Below the pieces are notes generated by a model. That model was not told the origin of the DNA. It saw nothing but the letters and a program-made list of their open reading frames with translations, and searched no databases. A stretch of DNA of 64,000 nt from NCBI GenBank assembly GCA_016716135.1, contig JADJWX010000028.1:160487-224486 (forward strand), in the 5' to 3' direction. This DNA is from Lewinellaceae bacterium (lineage in GTDB: Bacteria; Bacteroidota; Bacteroidia; Chitinophagales; Saprospiraceae). The position numbers were made by a program, and so were the translations under genes. Each line of letters opens with the position of its first letter. Positions within the stretch are counted from its first letter, which is position 1. Of the stretch, positions 9,847 through 41,401 are shown piece by piece.

Positions 9847-12800
9847 TTAAACATAGTTGTACAAATCTATAAACGCCCGGTATCGCGCATCTTCTTGCAA
9901 AACATCCGGATTGCCTATGACGATCACCTGCTCCCGGGCGCGGGTAAGCGCAACGTTCAATTTCCGATCGATGCCCTCATTGGAAAGATTGACCAGTTTG
10001 GCCAGCTGACTGCCCGCATGCACGCAGCAGGAAATCAGGATCACCTCCCGCGCGCCGCCCTGGTAGCGTTCCACGGTGTCGATGGTTTGCGCATCGGGGT
10101 CAAGCCCGGCTTCGGCGATTGCCTGCCGGATTTGTGCAATCTGCGCCCGCCAGGGTGTGATGATGCCCAGGCTGGTTTCCGGGTCCCAGGGTTTGCCCAT
10201 GGCAGCCCATTTTTCTTTGAAATGCCGGAGCAACTGCGCGACCATTCGGGCCTCCTCGGGCGCTGTTTTTTGATAGGGTAACGCATTATCAGCGCGCACC
10301 GGAATGAATTGGACGCGACGTGCCCAGGGCCCGGACAAGTCTGCTTGATCTTCCTGGAGTTGGCGGTGCTGCCTGTGCGTGTCGTCCGGTTCATCACCTG
10401 CCAGAGTTTGCAACTGGCCGTCGTAAAAATACCGGTTGGGAAAATCCATGATGTCGGCATGCATGCGGCCCTGGCGGTAGAGTTGGCCGTAGTTTTCGTC
10501 CAATCCATGCTGCTGGCAGATGCGATACAGCCGTTCGAAGTAGGAATCGCGCAGATCGAAGAGGCCAATGGCGTTTAACTCAGGATCGTCCACCCGGGTA
10601 AGTTCCGGGGCTTGCGCAGTCACGGCAGGTAGCTGCCGGTGGTCGCCGATGAGCACAAAATGCTCAAAGCGGGTGAGCAGGCCCACCAGTTGGGGTTCCA
10701 GAATTTGGGACGCTTCATCGACTACCAGTCGTTGTATTTTTTTGATCGCCAGCAGGTTTTCATTGTGCGCAAACGAAGCCACCGTGCTCACGATGATACG
10801 CCGGGGCTCCAAAATCGCCAGCAGTTCGGCCCGGTTTCCGGCATTGGCAGTGTGTGCGCTGAGCAGTTGGTCCCTAAACCTTTCGGCGGTGGAGAAGCGC
10901 GAACCGATGCGGAGGTATTGCGTGCGGATGTCGCCGCCGAGGCTGTCGAGCGCTTCGCAAATTTCGTCCACTGCCCGGTTGGTGTAGGCCAGTAGCAGCA
11001 GGTTGTCGGTGGTTTCGCGAAGTACCCAACCGGCCAGGTCGCGCAGCATGATGCTGGTTTTGCCGGTGCCGGGGGGGCCCCAGAGGAGGAAGAAGTTTTT
11101 GGCGTTGGCGATTTTTGGCAACCCCACCCCCATCCCCTCCCCCAGAGGGGAGGGGGGCTTGGCCTCGGGATTATTTTTGATGTTGGGAACCTTGGCCAAA
11201 TCTTTACGGCGTTTGGCAATGGTTTGGCGAAGGGAATCAAGTGTTTGGTTCGTTCGGTTTAGAATATCGGCATTTGTAAACCGAATTACTTCGAAACCGG
11301 CCAGTTGCAAAAACTCGGTTCGCAGAGCGTCCCATTCCGGTTGGAAATCGTGGATGTTACCATCCAGTTCAATAACCAGGCGAAATTCTAAACTGACAAA
11401 GTCCGCGATAAATTCTTCAATGGCGTGCTGGCGGCGAAACTTAACACCATCCAATTTTTTATCTCTGATTTTCTCCCAAAGTACAGTCTCTGCTTCCGTT
11501 TGATATTTTCGAAGATTGCGGCAAAAGCCCTTCAGATAGCGCCATCGTGCCATATCCGTAGTTTCCTGCGGCTGGCCAAAAGCGCCAATTTTCCTAACTT
11601 TTTCCGCATCAGGAGCCGAATCATACCCCGAATGCTTTGAAAATCCAGAGGGCAAGCCCCCCTCCCCCTTGGGGGAGGGGATGGGGGTGGGGTTGAGAAT
11701 CAGGGCGCGGTTTCCCGCCCCCGCCCACTCAAACAGCCCCCGGTACATCGCCGTGAACCCCATGTCCAGCATATCCGGTTCCAGGTTCCACAGGGCACTG
11801 GTTTCAAAGGGCTTCAGGTTGAACTGGCGGTAACGGAGTTGCACCGTCACCTGATCGGACTTGAGTTCCGTGATAATGCACTTGATCACCTGGTGGTCGA
11901 GCACGGTGTCGGTTTCCGTTTCGGCGGGGTAGAGCACGGCGATGTCGCCGACGCGGAAATTGGCCAGTGGATTGGTCATTTCCGTTTTTTGAAAAATAAT
12001 GCAGGGGTCGGCCTGATCCGCGCGGTTTTGCATAATTTTCAAATGGCTGAGAATAGCGTAGGCCTCTTGTTTTTCGGCAAAACTGCTCCGCCAAAGCGCG
12101 GCATTACCATTGACGGTATCGCTGTTTTCTTCACCCACTTTGGCCAACCACTGCTCGCGGGCAATGAGGCCGCAAAAGGCGTTGAAATATTTTTTCTCCA
12201 GCGAATTAAGTTTGCCGTAGGCGGCCTCAAACTGGCCGAAATCGCGCTGTAAAAAATCGCCCTGCGGCGCCTTGTCAGCCCGAAGGCGCTGAAGCAACGG
12301 CACCTCAACATCGCCCGGACGGATAGCCGCCAGCAGGCGCTCGATGCCCACCAGGTGGTTGCGCACTTGCAGGGCCTCCCACTGCTCGGGCGCCACGGTA
12401 GGGGCAAAACGCAGTTGCTGCACGTCCATACCCGAGTACAGAATGTACTTGGCCGGGTCGGCCTGGGCGCCGTACACCGAGCGCACAAGCAGATCGTAGA
12501 GCAGGGTCTGCGTGAAATGGCTGCGTTGGATGCCGTAGGCATTGGGCCGGTACGGGGTGCCGCTTTTCAATTCGACGATGGCCGAGCGGTCATCCTGCCG
12601 GAAAAACAGATCGAGGCGGCCCTGCAGGCCAAATTGTTCGCTGTAAAATGTGGGCTCCAACACACAATCGGCGGGGTCGATCTGTTGCTGGGCCAACCCG
12701 GTTTGCGCCATGTATTTCAGGTTCAGGTAATGTTTTTGGGCTTTGCCCAAAATTTCGCGCACTTTGGCGTCGGGCATCGGCGCAAACACGAAGGGATAGG

Positions 12801-13698
12801 CCTGAAAACTTTCGCGCAGCAATTCCGTGTAATCGGCATCGGGTTGAGTCAGCAGCCTGTCGAGGAAAAGGTTGGCTATGTTTCCCAACAGGATGGGCGG
12901 CGTTTGCTCATAAGGCAAAAACTTTTTCACGAGGTAGGCCAGCGGCTGGGCGCCACTTACTTTGAAACACTCGGAAATCGCCGAAACGTCCATCAGAAAA
13001 TCGGGCTCCACCACGAAAGCGCGCGGTCGGTAGTAGCCCTGCTGGTCCACGTCCACATCGAGCAGGTTGAGCGTGACCGGGAAGCCGAACACCGTGCGCA
13101 AAAGCCGGATGGTGGGGTTGAAACTGTCGTTGCGTTCGGGCAGGTTGTAGCGCACGCGCACCGGCTCGAAGGGGTTTTCTTCATCGAAGGCGAAAAAAAA
13201 GTGTTGCTCCGGTTCGTCGCGCACGGCCACCACGCGGGCGCGGGCCTTGTAGTCCCAGATTTCGGGTGCGGCAAACTGCCATTCGCCTTCGGCCGGGAAA
13301 TGCGCCAGCACTTCCGGGGGAATTGCCGTTTTGAAAAAGATCAGGATGGTTTCGGCCAGGACTTGCACGCCGAGGTGCACATGCCGCGCTTCGATGCCTT
13401 GCTCCTGTCCCGACCGTACCCGCCCGGCGATGCGCCGGAAATGGTGGATGCGTTGCAGGGTTTCGGGCTGAATCTGAAATTGGTGGCCGGCGTAGCTGAT
13501 GCGGGCGAAAAGGGTGCTGAAGGCCAGCTGCTCCTGCCGGGTCGCTTCGAAGAAAAGGCGTTCCAGCAAGGTGGCCAGGGCCAGCACTTTTTCGCGCGGC
13601 GCCCAGTGGGCATGCGCGGCGATTTTTACCAGTTCGCGGTAGAGTAATGGCGCGGTTTCGGGTGGCATTGGGCGAAGATACGACAGCGATCTTTGCAA
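9847..13698 (-). CDS. PD-(D/E)XK (Cas4/AddB-like) nuclease fused to a Dna2/Upf1-like SF1 helicase, carrying an in-frame DUF559 insertion
   Basis: The nuclease motif is GRLDLFFRQDDRSAIVELKSG...QTLLY. Helicase motifs are LLWGPPGTGKTS, LLLAYTNRAVDE, VVDEASQILEP, LIGDHRQLPAV, RQGRMH, ITPWRAQ, VERYQGGAREVILIS and LNVALTRAREQVIVIG. The ORF is a single open frame of 1283 codons. Confidence 0.85.
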   Translation of the reverse strand: MQRSLSYLRPMPPETAPLLYRELVKIAAHAHWAPREKVLALATLLERLFFEATRQEQLAFSTLFARISYAGHQFQIQPETLQRIHHFRRIAGRVRSGQEQGIEARHVHLGVQVLAETILIFFKTAIPPEVLAHFPAEGEWQFAAPEIWDYKARARVVAVRDEPEQHFFFAFDEENPFEPVRVRYNLPERNDSFNPTIRLLRTVFGFPVTLNLLDVDVDQQGYYRPRAFVVEPDFLMDVSAISECFKVSGAQPLAYLVKKFLPYEQTPPILLGNIANLFLDRLLTQPDADYTELLRESFQAYPFVFAPMPDAKVREILGKAQKHYLNLKYMAQTGLAQQQIDPADCVLEPTFYSEQFGLQGRLDLFFRQDDRSAIVELKSGTPYRPNAYGIQRSHFTQTLLYDLLVRSVYGAQADPAKYILYSGMDVQQLRFAPTVAPEQWEALQVRNHLVGIERLLAAIRPGDVEVPLLQRLRADKAPQGDFLQRDFGQFEAAYGKLNSLEKKYFNAFCGLIAREQWLAKVGEENSDTVNGNAALWRSSFAEKQEAYAILSHLKIMQNRADQADPCIIFQKTEMTNPLANFRVGDIAVLYPAETETDTVLDHQVIKCIITELKSDQVTVQLRYRQFNLKPFETSALWNLEPDMLDMGFTAMYRGLFEWAGAGNRALILNPTPIPSPKGEGGLPSGFSKHSGYDSAPDAEKVRKIGAFGQPQETTDMARWRYLKGFCRNLRKYQTEAETVLWEKIRDKKLDGVKFRRQHAIEEFIADFVSLEFRLVIELDGNIHDFQPEWDALRTEFLQLAGFEVIRFTNADILNRTNQTLDSLRQTIAKRRKDLAKVPNIKNNPEAKPPSPLGEGMGVGLPKIANAKNFFLLWGPPGTGKTSIMLRDLAGWVLRETTDNLLLLAYTNRAVDEICEALDSLGGDIRTQYLRIGSRFSTAERFRDQLLSAHTANAGNRAELLAILEPRRIIVSTVASFAHNENLLAIKKIQRLVVDEASQILEPQLVGLLTRFEHFVLIGDHRQLPAVTAQAPELTRVDDPELNAIGLFDLRDSYFERLYRICQQHGLDENYGQLYRQGRMHADIMDFPNRYFYDGQLQTLAGDEPDDTHRQHRQLQEDQADLSGPWARRVQFIPVRADNALPYQKTAPEEARMVAQLLRHFKEKWAAMGKPWDPETSLGIITPWRAQIAQIRQAIAEAGLDPDAQTIDTVERYQGGAREVILISCCVHAGSQLAKLVNLSNEGIDRKLNVALTRAREQVIVIGNPDVLQEDARYRAFIDLYNYV
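11119..11157. repeat. Left terminal inverted repeat of the DUF559 element (hairpin plus a G4 motif on the - strand)
   Basis: It is the reverse complement of 11657-11695 except in the 3-nt hairpin loop (aga versus aag). It is translated as PPSPLGEGMGVGL in the host frame. Confidence 0.9.
11657..11695. repeat. Right terminal inverted repeat of the DUF559 element (hairpin plus a G4 motif on the + strand)
   Basis: GGGGG-A-GGGG-AT-GGGGG-T-GGGG lies at 11671-11692. It is translated as NPTPIPSPKGEGG in the host frame. Confidence 0.9.
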
Positions 13699-19015: not shown

Positions 19016-19089
19016 AGCCTTTTTTGTTGAAAAAAAAGTAGGAGTACAAAATTTGAAATGCCCGCCGTAGATTATTTTTTCACCAAAAA

Positions 19090-19308
19090 CATGAGTCATC
19101 CCGAATTTTTAAAATGACTTCGGAGAAGTCAAATATTTGTAGATCAGAGATTTAAGGGCGCTCGACGACCTCGGAGAGGTCGCATGTGCAGGGGTTAGCA
19201 CCTGGATATTCGACCTCTCCGAGGTCGGGCAACGGGTAACCGGAGCATTTCTACAAATATTTGACCTCTCCGAGGTCTTTTTTATGGAAAAATTCGGGAT
19301 AACTCATG
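19090..19308. repeat. 219-bp palindromic MITE-like element with 21-nt terminal inverted repeats and four GACCTC-NNN-GAGGTC hairpin modules
   Basis: catgagtcatcccgaattttt (19090-19110) pairs with aaaaattcgggataactcatg (19288-19308) with one mismatch. The inner arms gacttcggagaagtcaaatatttgtaga and tctacaaatatttgacctctccgaggtc also pair. Confidence 0.8.
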
Positions 19309-19389
19309 TTTATGGTGAAAATTTGGAAACTACCTAACGCGCTAAGACTTATGTGACATCCTCTTTGTGAAAATTATGCACACTGGAAT

Positions 19390-22865: not shown

Positions 22866-22964
22866 ATTGAAGAAAAAGTGTGGAGTAAGAAAAGTGAACG
22901 CAGTGCGGTGGTCGTCAGAAAGTTTACCGGATGGAGAAATTACGCACCGTGCAGGTAAAATATG

Positions 22965-23046
22965 TGCGGGCGGAGGGACTCGAACCCCCATGCCTCTCGG
23001 CGCCAGATCCTAAGTCTGGTACGTCTACCAATTTCGCCACGCCCGC
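22965..23046 (-). tRNA. tRNA-Leu (anticodon UAG)
   Basis: GCGGGCGTGGCGAAATTGGTAGACGTACCAGACTTAGGATCTGGCGCCGAGAGGCATGGGGGTTCGAGTCCCTCCGCCCGCA has acceptor GCGGGCG/CGCCCGC and an anticodon loop CTTAGGA. It also has a long variable arm and a GGTTCGAGT T-loop. Confidence 0.9.
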
Positions 23047-36532: not shown

Positions 36533-36605
36533 GATCCCGTAGCTCAGCTGGCAGAGCACTTGACTTTTAATCAAGGTGTCATGGGTTCGAATCCCATCGG
36601 GATCA
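36533..36605 (+). tRNA. tRNA-Lys (anticodon UUU)
   Basis: GATCCCGTAGCTCAGCTGGCAGAGCACTTGACTTTTAATCAAGGTGTCATGGGTTCGAATCCCATCGGGATCA has acceptor GATCCCG/CGGGATC and an anticodon loop CTTTTAA. Confidence 0.9.
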
Positions 36606-36610
36606 CATTG

Positions 36611-41210: not shown

Positions 41211-41213
41211 AAA

Positions 41214-41378
41214 TTAAGTACTGTGACAAGATTATTCAAACCATTTGTGACCGCCCCTTTTGGCGCTGTTCAGCGTTGCTCACTCCTAAAAGACCTCAGG
41301 TATTCACGTCGTTCGCGCCTTGATCAACGCCAAAATTGCCTGGTCAAAATGATTCAATAATCTTGTCACAGTACTTAG
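41214..41378. repeat. 165-bp imperfect palindromic element (MITE-like) with ~37-nt terminal inverted repeats
   Basis: aagtactgtgacaagattattcaaaccatttgtgacc (41216-41252) pairs with ggtcaaaatgattcaataatcttgtcacagtactt (41342-41376). The inner arms ttttggcgctgttcagcg and cgccttgatcaacgccaaaa also pair. Confidence 0.7.
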
Positions 41379-41401
41379 TTTACACAAAAAAATAGTTCAA
41401 C

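What the first reader, a model, noticed from the sequence alone, without database searches (positions are those of the whole stretch)
11119..11695. In-frame DUF559 endonuclease element with 39-nt terminal inverted repeats inside a nuclease-helicase gene
A 577-bp segment interrupts the helicase ORF about 10 codons before its Walker A motif (GPPGTGKTS), yet keeps the frame open. The host reads ...AGNRALIL | NPTPIPSPKGEGG ... DUF559 domain ... PPSPLGEGMGVGL | PKIANAKNFFLLWGPPGTGKTS.

The two ends are 39-nt inverted repeats, identical except in a 3-nt hairpin loop. This is the signature of a transposon- or MITE-type element, not of a domain that evolved in place. The cargo is a Vsr-like PD-(D/E)XK endonuclease (DUF559), a family whose biology is essentially uncharacterised. 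It has an internal Met (MARWRY...) at the position where free-standing DUF559 proteins usually begin.

I know of no published description of DUF559 genes as TIR-bounded elements that insert in frame into host proteins. From memory, many database DUF559 proteins carry similar P-L-G-E-G-x-G-V tails, which would fit a widespread element family. The element could be a selfish homing-type element tolerated as a surface loop. Alternatively it could be a regulatory or functional domain acquisition by the helicase.
Basis: partly seen in the sequence, partly recalled or inferred. Interest (0 to 1): 0.85.

Follow-up and report, generated by a model that had tools for sequence, protein, structure and literature searches.

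The report
In-frame DUF559 nuclease mobile element
A small selfish DNA element, a nuclease gene flanked by hairpin-forming inverted repeats, sits inside a helicase gene and is translated as part of the helicase; relatives occupy fixed spots in many essential bacterial genes, a lifestyle I found no description of in the searchable literature.

Summary
Window 11119-11695 is bounded by 54-nt inverted repeats (93% complementary). Each arm holds its own G+C hairpin. The segment encodes an intact DUF559 (Vsr-like PD-(D/E)XK) domain (Pfam E=3e-32) and is read in frame within a 1283-aa Dna2-like nuclease-helicase, 13 codons before Walker A.

Most orthologues lack the domain. Others carry only cargo-less arm pairs or a 66-nt mini hairpin at the same junctions.

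The arm sequence is a multi-copy repeat in related Saprospiraceae/Lewinellaceae genomes. I found 70 convergent pairs, almost all 113-306 nt and cargo-less, 18 of the 69 copies outside the window in frame within ORFs, with no target-site duplication. DUF559 is the only coding cargo seen between these arms.

In 83 metagenomic DUF559 copies, 38 have flanking hairpin inverted repeats, against 0 of 190 control windows. Thirty-six copies sit in frame at recurrent sites in LeuRS, MetH, RecG and other genes.

DUF559 lineages follow insertion site and conflict with host phylogeny.

Best reading: a homing-type, unspliced, TIR-bounded nuclease element, tolerated because its arms encode Pro/Gly tethers. 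The mobility mechanism is inferred, not shown. Ten full-text searches found no prior description.

The parts
9847..13698 (-). Host gene: 1283-aa Dna2-like nuclease-helicase, 1091 aa without the insert
   Evidence: ORF list. Pfam PDDEXK_1 plus AAA_11/AAA_12/AAA_19/AAA_30. Orthologues are named 'DNA replication ATP-dependent helicase Dna2' or 'AAA family ATPase' in Saprospiraceae and Lewinellaceae MAGs.
11119..11695 (-). The inserted element: arm, DUF559 cassette, arm (577 bp; 192 codons read in frame as 11119-11694)
   Evidence: Core G+C is 45% against 58% for the host gene.
11642..11695 (.). Terminal inverted-repeat arm at the 5' end in mRNA sense, encoding NPTPIPSPKGEGGLPSGF
   Evidence: Inverted repeat I1. 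Stop-free in all six frames. The same 24-mer recurs in more than 101 genomic stretches.
11119..11172 (.). Terminal inverted-repeat arm at the 3' end in mRNA sense, encoding ...NPEAKPPSPLGEGMGVGL
   Evidence: Inverted repeat I1. Stop-free in all six frames.
11134..11155 (.). Local hairpin within the arm: CCCCTCCCCC-AGA-GGGGAGGGG
   Evidence: Direct/inverted family D1.
11659..11680 (.). Local hairpin within the other arm: CCCCTCCCCC-TTG-GGGGAGGGG
11218..11532 (-). DUF559 / Vsr-like PD-(D/E)XK endonuclease domain (host residues 723-827), with the family's invariant residues intact (KFRRQH, DF, ExDGxxH, RF.N)
   Evidence: Pfam E=3e-32. Invariant columns of alignment A1. PDB 3HRL E=1e-35 and 3R3P E=2e-5. 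AF2 core pLDDT above 90; Foldseek 3HRL TM 0.94 and I-Bth0305I TM 0.75.
11056..11079 (-). Walker A motif GPPGTGKT of the host helicase, 13 codons downstream of the element
   Evidence: Read from the sequence and the translation.
12376..12906 (-). The host's own N-terminal PD-(D/E)XK nuclease domain (PDDEXK_1, residues 265-441), unrelated to the insert
   Evidence: Pfam.
9907..11103 (-). Host SF1 helicase core (residues about 866-1264)
   Evidence: Pfam AAA_11/AAA_12. AF2 model is confident across both RecA-like domains.

Best explanation
The segment is a selfish mobile-element insertion, not a native domain. It is a cassette of about 0.47 kb encoding a Vsr-like PD-(D/E)XK (DUF559) endonuclease. 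Two G+C-rich arms of about 50 nt bound it; they are inverted repeats of each other, and each can also fold into its own 10-bp hairpin.

Why it is tolerated. The element lies in a hypervariable linker just ahead of the first strand of the helicase core and is translated through in frame. The arms are made of C-runs and G-runs, so they have no stop codon in any of the six frames. In either orientation they encode Pro-rich then Gly-rich peptide. The predicted result is two disordered tethers from which the nuclease hangs as an independently folded domain, leaving the helicase intact. The insertion, the read-through frame and the predicted fold are shown here.

How it moves (inferred). It spreads in a homing-like way. 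The DUF559 nuclease, whose nearest characterised relative is the homodimeric Vsr-like homing endonuclease I-Bth0305I, would break a cognate site that lacks the cassette. Such a site could be an empty allele or an arms-only shell. Recombinational repair from a filled copy would then copy the cassette in, using the arms and host flanks as homology.

This would account for four findings: the absence of target-site duplications, the fixed insertion sites next to conserved motifs in conserved genes, the site-specific DUF559 lineages, and the replacement of DUF559 alleles between near-identical hosts.

The many short arms-only copies would be non-autonomous derivatives, maintained or spread in trans by the same nuclease or by recombination.
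For: Insertion rather than a native domain:
- Most of 120 orthologues lack DUF559, and the site is a 5-60 aa variable linker.
- G+C is 45% in the core against 58% in the host gene.
- P0140 (filled) and P0144 share 96.8% aa and 94% nt host identity and identical outer junctions. P0144 holds a 66-nt mini hairpin where P0140 holds MITE-DUF559-MITE.

Repeat family:
- The exact 24-mer arm occurs in more than 101 stretches of related MAGs.
- There are 70 convergent pairs, and only the window and its orthologue L016 carry DUF559.
- No pair 0.6-5 kb apart exists that could hold a transposase.
- Of the 69 copies outside the window, 18 lie in frame inside long ORFs.

Generality:
- LeuRS and RNase HI examples have their own 34-35 nt inverted repeats at 97% complementarity.
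- 38 of 83 metagenomic DUF559 copies have flanking inverted repeats (score 16 or more), against 0 of 190 shifted control windows.
- 36 of 83 are embedded in frame in long ORFs. They sit at recurrent sites in LeuRS (two sites), MetH (two sites), MetRS, RecG, IcmF and others.
- A Sinorhizobium meliloti pSymB copy has 114-nt inverted repeats.

Homing-like signature:
- The nearest DUF559 neighbour shares the insertion site in 34 of 44 cases, against 3.75 for shuffled labels.
- DUF559 alleles conflict with host phylogeny. Window vs P0122: host 92.9%, DUF559 62.6%. P0131 vs P0132: host 93.6%, DUF559 55%. P0126 vs P0132: host 88%, DUF559 78%.
- No target-site duplication at any boundary offset.

Nuclease intact:
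- All invariant residues are kept.
- A profile of the family matches the I-Bth0305I catalytic domain (3R3P, E=1.8e-5; TM 0.75) and 3HRL.

Tolerance:
- AF2 gives pLDDT below 50 for the two arm-encoded stretches (protein 673-711 and 839-856). DUF559 and the helicase core are confident.
- Both arms are stop-free in 6 of 6 frames.
Against: - No cleavage, mobility or expression data exist. The mechanism rests on inference.
- A lone PD-(D/E)XK hydrolase cannot carry out strand transfer. Spread of arms-only copies to unrelated sites is therefore not explained by homing alone.
- The MAG with the most arms-only copies (CAZAEZ01, more than 40 loci) showed no DUF559 among the sampled loci.
- 45 of 83 metagenomic DUF559 copies had no clear flanking inverted repeat.
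- Site-specific clustering of DUF559 could partly reflect vertical descent with the host gene.
- A perfect RNA stem of about 50 bp formed by the arms might be expected to harm the host mRNA.
Confidence: 0.6

Rival explanations
1. Passenger model. The hairpin-armed repeat is a non-autonomous element mobilised by an enzyme encoded elsewhere, for example an IS200/IS605-type, IS110-type or other transposase. DUF559 is merely cargo trapped between two arms or two copies, with no role in mobility.
For: - Arms-only copies outnumber DUF559 copies about 69 to 1-2 in the sampled loci.
- Some orthologues show the composite form MITE-DUF559-MITE.
- A hydrolytic nuclease cannot join strands.
- Lack of a target-site duplication also fits HUH-type and IS110-type elements.
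Against: - DUF559 is tied to hairpin inverted repeats in lineages whose arm sequences differ: 38 of 83 copies against 0 of 190 controls.
- No other coding cargo and no transposase-sized pair was seen between these arms in 101 loci.
- The invariant nuclease residues are conserved across 15 helicase inserts.
Confidence: 0.22
2. Adaptive domain acquisition. The helicase gained a second nuclease domain that now serves a host function in repair or defence, and the flanking repeats are incidental linkers.
For: - The host is itself a nuclease-helicase.
- The DUF559 residues are under long-term conservation.
- The insert persists in several orthologue lineages.
Against: - The same cassette sits in enzymes with no DNA function, including LeuRS, MetH, MiaB, a GH31 enzyme and CinA.
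- Its distribution is patchy, with loss at 97% host identity.
- Its alleles conflict with host phylogeny.
- Its G+C content is foreign, and its arms are a dispersed repeat.
Confidence: 0.08
3. Removable intervening sequence. The insert is excised from the transcript (intron-like, using the arm-arm stem), bypassed by the ribosome, or spliced from the protein (intein-like), so it is absent from the mature helicase.
For: The arms are predicted to pair into an RNA stem of about 50 bp that brings the host junctions together (z = -12). The insertion sites resemble those of inteins and introns.
Against: - No Rfam family, including group I and II introns, matches the region even at E up to 1.
- No Hint or intein domain is found by Pfam.
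- The junction residues (N...GL|P) lack the Cys/Ser/Thr and His-Asn of inteins.
- The frame is kept open across both junctions here and in 36 other hosts. That would be unnecessary if the insert were removed.
Confidence: 0.05

Closest known systems
Vsr-like (EDxHD) homing endonucleases, prototype I-Bth0305I (PMC3239194; family first noted in PMC2677866)
   Same: - Same nuclease fold. A profile of the insert's family hits the I-Bth0305I catalytic domain (E=1.8e-5; Foldseek TM 0.75).
- Occupies fixed sites in conserved genes with a patchy distribution and host-incongruent phylogeny.
   Different: - I-Bth0305I lives in a self-splicing group I intron, and its relatives live in inteins or between split inteins. 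Here no intron or intein is present and the ORF is simply read through.
- I-Bth0305I has extra DNA-binding domains. This cassette is little more than the catalytic core plus tethers.
- Hairpin-bearing terminal inverted repeats are not a feature of that family.
Inteins
   Same: In-frame parasitism of essential genes at loops next to conserved motifs. The nuclease is expressed through the host's own translation.
   Different: No Hint splicing domain and no splice-junction residues. The insert is presumably retained in the mature protein.
Rickettsia palindromic elements (RPEs; reviewed in PMC10969869)
   Same: Short palindromic repeats found in frame within unrelated protein genes and tolerated as added peptide. 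Of the arms-only copies outside the window, 18 of 69 behave this way.
   Different: - RPEs have no known coding cargo and no known mobilising enzyme.
- The sequences are not known to be related (not tested), and the phylum differs.
- Here a nuclease-bearing member exists.
MITEs such as Correia and ERIC elements
   Same: Small size, terminal inverted repeats, many copies, and mostly no ORF.
   Different: No target-site duplication and no parental IS with a recognised transposase. The only coding relative carries a PD-(D/E)XK nuclease.
REPIN-RAYT systems
   Same: The architecture is similar: a rare gene flanked by inverted hairpin repeats, together with a genome-wide population of paired hairpins lacking the gene.
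   Different: The associated gene is a DUF559 hydrolase, not a Y1 HUH transposase. The gene sits inside a host ORF in frame. The comparison rests on my own knowledge of REPIN-RAYT biology and was not tested here.
TnpB nuclease of IS605-family transposons (10.1101/2023.11.20.567912)
   Same: A conceptual precedent for an element-encoded nuclease that is not the transposase. It cuts vacant sites so that recombination restores or copies the element.
   Different: TnpB is an RNA-guided RuvC-type nuclease and works alongside TnpA. No guide RNA and no partner transposase is evident here.
YhgA/Rpn-type PD-(D/E)XK_2 'transposases' proposed as MITE parents in Thiomargarita (PMC4853749)
   Same: An earlier suggestion that a PD-(D/E)XK nuclease, not a DDE or HUH enzyme, could be linked to a MITE family.
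   Different: A different Pfam family (PF12784, not PF04480), with no in-frame lifestyle described. The link was only suggested in that paper.

Membership tests
DUF559 (PF04480), Vsr-like PD-(D/E)XK nucleases | Profile match above the curated threshold | tested here: met
   111 bits against a cut-off of 20.6, E=3e-32, covering profile positions 4-108 of 109.
DUF559 (PF04480), Vsr-like PD-(D/E)XK nucleases | Conserved core residues (FRRQH, DF, ExDGxxH, R..L, RF.N) | tested here: met
   All 21 invariant columns of alignment A1 are kept. They are kept in 14 of 15 helicase inserts.
DUF559 (PF04480), Vsr-like PD-(D/E)XK nucleases | Vsr-like fold | tested here: met
   AF2 core pLDDT above 90. Foldseek gives 3HRL TM 0.94 (rmsd 1.7), 3R3P TM 0.75 and 1VSR TM 0.57.
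DUF559 (PF04480), Vsr-like PD-(D/E)XK nucleases | Nuclease activity | not testable with these tools
   Needs biochemistry.
Homing endonuclease gene | Same insertion site in a conserved gene across hosts, with a patchy distribution | tested here: met
   Helicase site: 14 filled among 120 orthologues. LeuRS site A in 9 or more loci, MetH site A in 9 loci, and others.
Homing endonuclease gene | Element phylogeny incongruent with host phylogeny (lateral movement at the site) | tested here: met
   Three allele groups are distributed against the host tree. Examples: host 93.6% with DUF559 55%; host 88% with DUF559 78%.
Homing endonuclease gene | Housed in a self-splicing intron or intein, or free-standing between genes | tested here: not met
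   No Rfam intron and no Hint domain. The ORF is fused in frame to the host on both sides.
Homing endonuclease gene | Cleaves the cassette-less allele and is copied in by repair | not testable with these tools
   Inferred only.
Intein | Hint domain; N-terminal Cys/Ser/Thr; C-terminal His-Asn followed by Cys/Ser/Thr | tested here: not met
   Pfam finds only DUF559 in the insert. The insert starts with Asn and ends Gly-Leu, followed by Pro.
MITE (miniature inverted-repeat transposable element) | Terminal inverted repeats | tested here: met
   54 nt at 93% here. The cargo-less copies share about 43-58 nt of each terminus with the window element.
MITE (miniature inverted-repeat transposable element) | Many dispersed copies, small, non-coding | tested here: met
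   69 cargo-less pairs, almost all 113-306 nt (one 51-nt solo palindrome), in about 8 MAGs. The window copy itself is coding, so it would be the 'autonomous-like' member.
MITE (miniature inverted-repeat transposable element) | Target-site duplication | tested here: not met
   At the mapped boundary, 0 of 68 copies have a direct repeat of 3 nt or more. No consistent excess at boundary offsets from 4 nt inward to 8 nt outward.
MITE (miniature inverted-repeat transposable element) | Parental IS with a recognised transposase sharing the TIRs | tested here: inconclusive
   None found in 101 loci. However, the genome scan was truncated and no complete genome was searched.
REPIN-RAYT | Associated gene is a Y1 (HUH) REP-associated transposase | tested here: not met
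   The flanked gene is DUF559.
Rickettsia palindromic elements | Sequence membership of an RPE family | not tested
   Only the behaviour (in-frame palindromic insertion) was compared. The taxon differs.

The most novel reading that the evidence does not exclude
DUF559 is the mobilising enzyme of a previously unrecognised class of prokaryotic mobile element. The class would consist of hairpin-armed cassettes that need no transposase, intron or intein, and that survive inside essential genes because their arms encode universal Pro/Gly tethers. They would propagate by nuclease-triggered repair, possibly through an arm-to-arm paired or fold-back intermediate. That intermediate is hinted at by loop variants being matched between the two arms of a copy (22 of 70 within copies, against 3% between copies). 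If true, this would give a function to a family of about 19,000 50%-identity clusters.
Probability: 0.35. Interest if true: 0.9.

Novelty: new variant of a known kind. Interest (0 to 1): 0.8.

Why it matters
- DUF559 is a very large family with no assigned biology: 19,443 clusters at 50% identity hit at E up to 1e-3. This finding makes a concrete, testable proposal for a large clade of it: a homing-type nuclease of hairpin-armed elements.
- It would show a third way, besides introns and inteins, for a nuclease gene to live inside essential genes. Instead of being removed, it is tolerated, through built-in frame-independent flexible linkers.
- It explains a recurrent annotation artefact. DUF559 'fusions' to LeuRS, MetH, RNase HI, RecG and others are seen. 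The short PSPxGEG-type peptides are read from the arms-only copies in many proteins.
- The arms are natural, portable, stop-free linker modules, and the insertion sites map permissive loops in important enzymes. Both are useful for protein engineering.
- If the nuclease is site-specific, the many site-specific lineages would be a library of new specificities.

Tried and rejected
- Intron or known RNA. Rfam at E up to 1 over 10800-12000 gave only noise hits on the hairpins. Rejected.
- Intein. No Hint domain and the wrong junction residues. Rejected.
- Target-site duplication. Searched at boundary offsets from 4 nt inward to 8 nt outward, for lengths of 2-8 nt. Nothing consistent above shuffled expectation.
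- The inner hairpin as a direct 22-nt target duplication. Rejected, because the loop in one arm is the reverse complement of the loop in the other, not a direct copy.
- Arms-only copies as internal-deletion derivatives that retain DUF559 ends. Similarity to the window element stops 43-58 nt from each end, so this is neither shown nor excluded.
- A transposase-sized element with the same arms. No convergent pair 0.6-5 kb apart in 101 loci.
- Insertion into the centres of palindromes. Only 10% of copies have 9 or more of 12 complementary flank positions, against 1.9% when shuffled. Most of the signal is a 4-nt extension of the TIR consensus, G-N-K-T|...|A-M-N-C. It is a minority feature, not the rule, and the window copy lacks it.
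- Phage carriage. Only 2 weak hits among 50,697 phage records. PHROGs gave none.
- A first attempt to scan metagenomes with the 23-sequence alignment failed for lack of a conserved stretch. A smaller alignment worked.
- Literature. Ten full-text searches found no description of TIR-bounded or in-frame DUF559 elements. Subscription-only papers are not covered.
Full report
**1. What is in the window**

The minus strand carries one 1283-aa ORF, 9847..13698. Pfam finds an N-terminal PD-(D/E)XK nuclease domain (PDDEXK_1, residues 265-441) and an SF1 helicase core (AAA_11, AAA_12, AAA_19, AAA_30). This is a Dna2-like nuclease-helicase. Its closest relatives come from Saprospiraceae and Lewinellaceae MAGs (Bacteroidota) and are often named 'Dna2'.

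The translation reads ...AGNRALIL|NPTPIPSPKGEGG...PPSPLGEGMGVGL|PKIANAKNFFLLWGPPGTGKTS. The insert is 192 codons and ends 13 codons before Walker A.

Its ends are inverted repeats: 11119-11172 and 11642-11695, 54 nt, 93% complementary. Each arm contains the local hairpin CCCCTCCCCC-NNN-GGGGAGGGG. The arm motif occurs twice in the window and never in 100 shuffles.

The interior matches Pfam DUF559 at E=3e-32. It keeps every invariant residue of an alignment of 23 homologues. The insert core is 45% G+C and the host gene 58%.

**2. It is an insertion, and the site has several states**

Among the 120 best orthologues, most are 1080-1130 aa and have no DUF559. Between the conserved ...EWAxAG..R... 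and FLLWGPPGTGKT lies a linker of 5-60 variable residues. The shortest linkers are in P0129, P0153 and P0163.

Fourteen orthologues carry DUF559 at this spot. Others carry arms without cargo:
- P0166 has a 218-nt element with 43-nt inverted repeats at 98% complementarity.
- P0139, P0189 and P0158 also carry arm-derived remnants without DUF559.

The clearest pair is P0140 and P0144. Their host parts are 96.8% identical in protein and 94% in DNA, and the outer junctions are identical (GGGTG/A|TCAACCCC ... GGTTGA|GCAAAATC). P0140 holds a short element, then DUF559, then a second short element. P0144 holds only a 66-nt single hairpin with both outer ends.

In L184 the DUF559 likewise lies between two complete short elements in the same orientation. 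The window has the simpler form arm-DUF559-arm. The outer shell is therefore stable while its content turns over.

**3. The arms are a dispersed repeat family**

The exact 24-mer AACCCCACCCCCATCCCCTCCCCC occurs in more than 101 stretches of about 8 related MAGs.
- Allowing 4 mismatches gives 198 arm hits and 70 convergent pairs.
- Pair lengths cluster at 113-118, 135-140, 145-146 and 159-164 nt, with a few up to 306 nt and one 51-nt solo palindrome.
- Only the window copy (577 nt) and the orthologous helicase copy in L016 contain DUF559.
- No convergent pair 0.6-5 kb apart exists that could hold a transposase.
- Similarity to the window element is confined to the terminal 43-58 nt.
- No target-site duplication is detectable. 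The flanks only extend the TIR consensus by about 4 nt.

Of the 69 copies outside the window, 18 lie in frame inside long ORFs. The hosts include another SF1 helicase (again about 20 residues before Walker A), UvrA, a SNF2 helicase, PrmA, an amylase, a Kdo transferase, a mutase and a sensor kinase. The copies are read in three different frames, always as Pro-rich then Gly-rich peptide. Both window arms are stop-free in all six frames, as are 78 of 138 arms in the family.

**4. The architecture is general for a DUF559 clade**

Protein hits to the insert include DUF559 fused to fragments of MetH, LeuRS, RNase HI, DegT and IspG. Each is bracketed by PSPxGEG-like peptides. At the DNA level, a LeuRS copy and an RNase HI copy have their own 34-35 nt hairpin-bearing inverted repeats (97% complementary), with different sequences.

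I fetched 80 metagenomic loci with DUF559 relatives of 35-52% identity. Together with L102 and L103, they hold 83 DUF559 copies.
- 38 of 83 have a flanking inverted repeat scoring 16 or more, and 27 score 20 or more. None of 190 equally sized windows shifted by 1.5-2.5 kb does.
- A common arm motif is CCTCACCCC-N3-CCCCTCTCC-loop-GGAGAGGGG.
- 36 of 83 are embedded in frame in long ORFs, with at least 110 aa upstream and 90 aa downstream.

The hosts are class-I aminoacyl-tRNA synthetases, MetH, DNA methylases, IcmF-like mutases, RecG, MiaB, CinA, a GH31 enzyme and a PurQ-like protein. They also include a Dna2-like helicase hit at a different site.

The sites recur:
- LeuRS, before FTTRPDT: 9 or more loci.
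- LeuRS, before MPGYAGSSWY: 5 or more loci.
- MetH, just before the B12-binding VKGDVHDIG strand: 9 loci.
- RecG, between motifs II and III: 2 loci.
- IcmF, before its P-loop: 3 loci.

These are loops adjacent to strongly conserved motifs, the pattern familiar from inteins and intron-borne homing endonucleases.

The family is large. There are 19,443 clusters at 50% identity at E up to 1e-3, and about 56 of the best 150 are at least 250 aa long with an internal DUF559.

The architecture is not confined to Bacteroidota. A Sinorhizobium meliloti pSymB copy is flanked by 114-nt inverted repeats built from the same kind of hairpin.

**5. Signs of lateral movement at the site**

DUF559 sequences group by insertion site. 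The nearest neighbour shares the site in 34 of 44 cases, against 3.75 for shuffled labels.

Within the helicase site the DUF559 alleles conflict with host relatedness:

| Pair | Host identity | DUF559 identity |
|---|---|---|
| Window vs P0122 | 92.9% | 62.6% |
| Window vs P0130 | 76% | 69.7% |
| P0131 vs P0132 | 93.6% | 55% |
| P0126 vs P0132 | 88% | 78% |

Rate variation cannot produce this topology. Cassettes have been exchanged between hosts at the same site.

**6. The protein**

A profile of the family matches two solved structures: 3HRL (a Neisseria gonorrhoeae DUF559 protein, E=1e-35) and 3R3P (the catalytic domain of the homing endonuclease I-Bth0305I, E=1.8e-5).

AlphaFold models give a confident core (pLDDT above 90). 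It superposes on 3HRL (TM 0.94), I-Bth0305I (TM 0.75) and Vsr (TM 0.57).

In the context of helicase residues 600-1283, the two arm-encoded stretches have pLDDT below 50 (protein 673-711 and 839-856). DUF559 and both RecA-like domains are confident. The nuclease is thus predicted to be an independently folded domain on two flexible tethers. This is a prediction, not a measurement.

**7. What it is not**
- No Rfam family, including group I and II introns, matches the region.
- No Hint domain is present and the junction residues are not intein-like.
- Both junctions are in frame here and in 36 other hosts. That argues for read-through rather than removal.
- The arms are predicted to pair into an RNA stem of about 50 bp (z = -12). 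The effect of this stem on the mRNA is unknown.

**8. Mechanism**

Shown here:
- The segment is an inserted, in-frame, TIR-bounded DUF559 cassette.
- It is a member of a dispersed arm family.
- The architecture is general.
- Insertion sites are specific.
- Host and cassette phylogenies are incongruent.
- There is no target-site duplication.

Inferred:
- The nuclease cuts cassette-less cognate sites, and recombinational repair copies the cassette in (homing).
- The arms serve both as homology or recognition ends and as frame-independent Pro/Gly linkers.
- Arms-only copies are non-autonomous derivatives.

I-Bth0305I is a homodimer that cuts at the centre of a pseudopalindromic target (PMC3239194). 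This makes palindromic hairpin DNA a plausible substrate, but that is conjecture.

The main weakness is that a hydrolase alone does not explain the spread of arms-only copies to unrelated sites. The passenger model therefore keeps appreciable weight. TnpB in IS605 elements is a precedent for an element nuclease that promotes retention by cutting vacant sites, not by transposing (10.1101/2023.11.20.567912).

**9. Comparison and novelty**

The element works like a homing endonuclease gene but fails the family's usual housing: no intron, no intein, and not free-standing. Its arms-only relatives behave like Rickettsia palindromic elements (PMC10969869) and look like MITEs, but they lack target-site duplications and a known parental IS. 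The architecture recalls REPIN-RAYT, with a different enzyme.

Ten full-text searches found no description of DUF559 as a TIR-bounded or in-frame element. The nearest hint is a suggestion that a different PD-(D/E)XK family might parent MITEs in Thiomargarita (PMC4853749).

I rate it a new variant of a known kind. It could be categorically new if DUF559 proves to be the mobilising enzyme.

Noticed in passing
Loci L001-L101 plus window 11119-11695: The hairpin loop (nt 24-33 from each end) is hypervariable between copies: 37 variants among 70 left arms. Yet the two arms of one copy carry the same variant, as an inverted repeat, in 22 of 70 copies, against 3.1% for arms of different copies. Matched variants occur across different length classes. 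This suggests arm-to-arm homogenisation, or selection for arm-arm pairing, and an ordinary transposase-binding TIR would not predict it. The window copy differs at 2 nt.
   Followed up: partly
Loci L018, L074, L045, L059, L069, L092 and others: Some arms-only copies sit exactly at the centre of a host palindrome. An example is L018: tttcgccccgcatt|element|aatgcggggcgaaa, which looks like a terminator stem. Many share flanks of the form gcgctccgccgg...ccggcggagcgc, possibly a second repeat family into which this one nests. 10% of copies have 9 or more of 12 complementary flank positions, against 1.9% when shuffled.
   Followed up: partly
L132 (metagenomic contig APMI01091788.1): One LeuRS gene carries two DUF559 cassettes in frame, one at each of the two recurrent LeuRS sites.
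   Followed up: no
L101:2997-3160 and upstream: A hybrid sensor kinase carries several tandem or near-tandem in-frame arms-only copies between its kinase and receiver domains.
   Followed up: no
L017, L052, L054: A different SF1 helicase (IGHMBP2-like) carries an arms-only copy about 20 residues before its Walker A, a position like that of the window insert. L054 and L052 hold a second copy further into the same gene.
   Followed up: no
L189 (Sinorhizobium meliloti pSymB, CP090106.1): A free-standing DUF559 gene is flanked by 114-nt inverted repeats (96% complementary). Each repeat is built from a complete short palindromic element with the hairpin CCCTCTCCCC-loop-GGGGAGAGGG. An ISRm16 transposase lies next door. 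The association therefore extends to Alphaproteobacteria.
   Followed up: partly
L188 (Synechocystis sp. B12 plasmid, CP101712.1): A DUF559 gene with a C-terminal PSPVGEGPGVR tail lies between a DUF1156 fragment and a large ORF that ends in a similar peptide. It looks like a methylase gene split by the cassette and annotated as three genes. No inverted repeat was detected.
   Followed up: partly
L013, L070, L025, L040, L064: The exact 24-mer arm also occurs in MAG bins labelled Cardiobacterium and Thermoanaerobaculia. This probably reflects mis-binned Saprospiraceae contigs, not transfer.
   Followed up: no
window 19077-19321: An A+T-rich intergenic structure of about 245 nt, made of three nested inverted-repeat pairs (34, 33 and 27 nt; 89-94% complementary). 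It forms one long hairpin and is unrelated to the DUF559 arms.
   Followed up: no
window 41211-41381: An intergenic 171-nt element with 37-nt A+T-rich terminal inverted repeats (86% complementary), MITE-like.
   Followed up: no
window 22964-23046 and 36533-36606: tRNA-Leu(TAG) and tRNA-Lys(TTT). These are the only Rfam or ARAGORN hits in the window.
   Followed up: no
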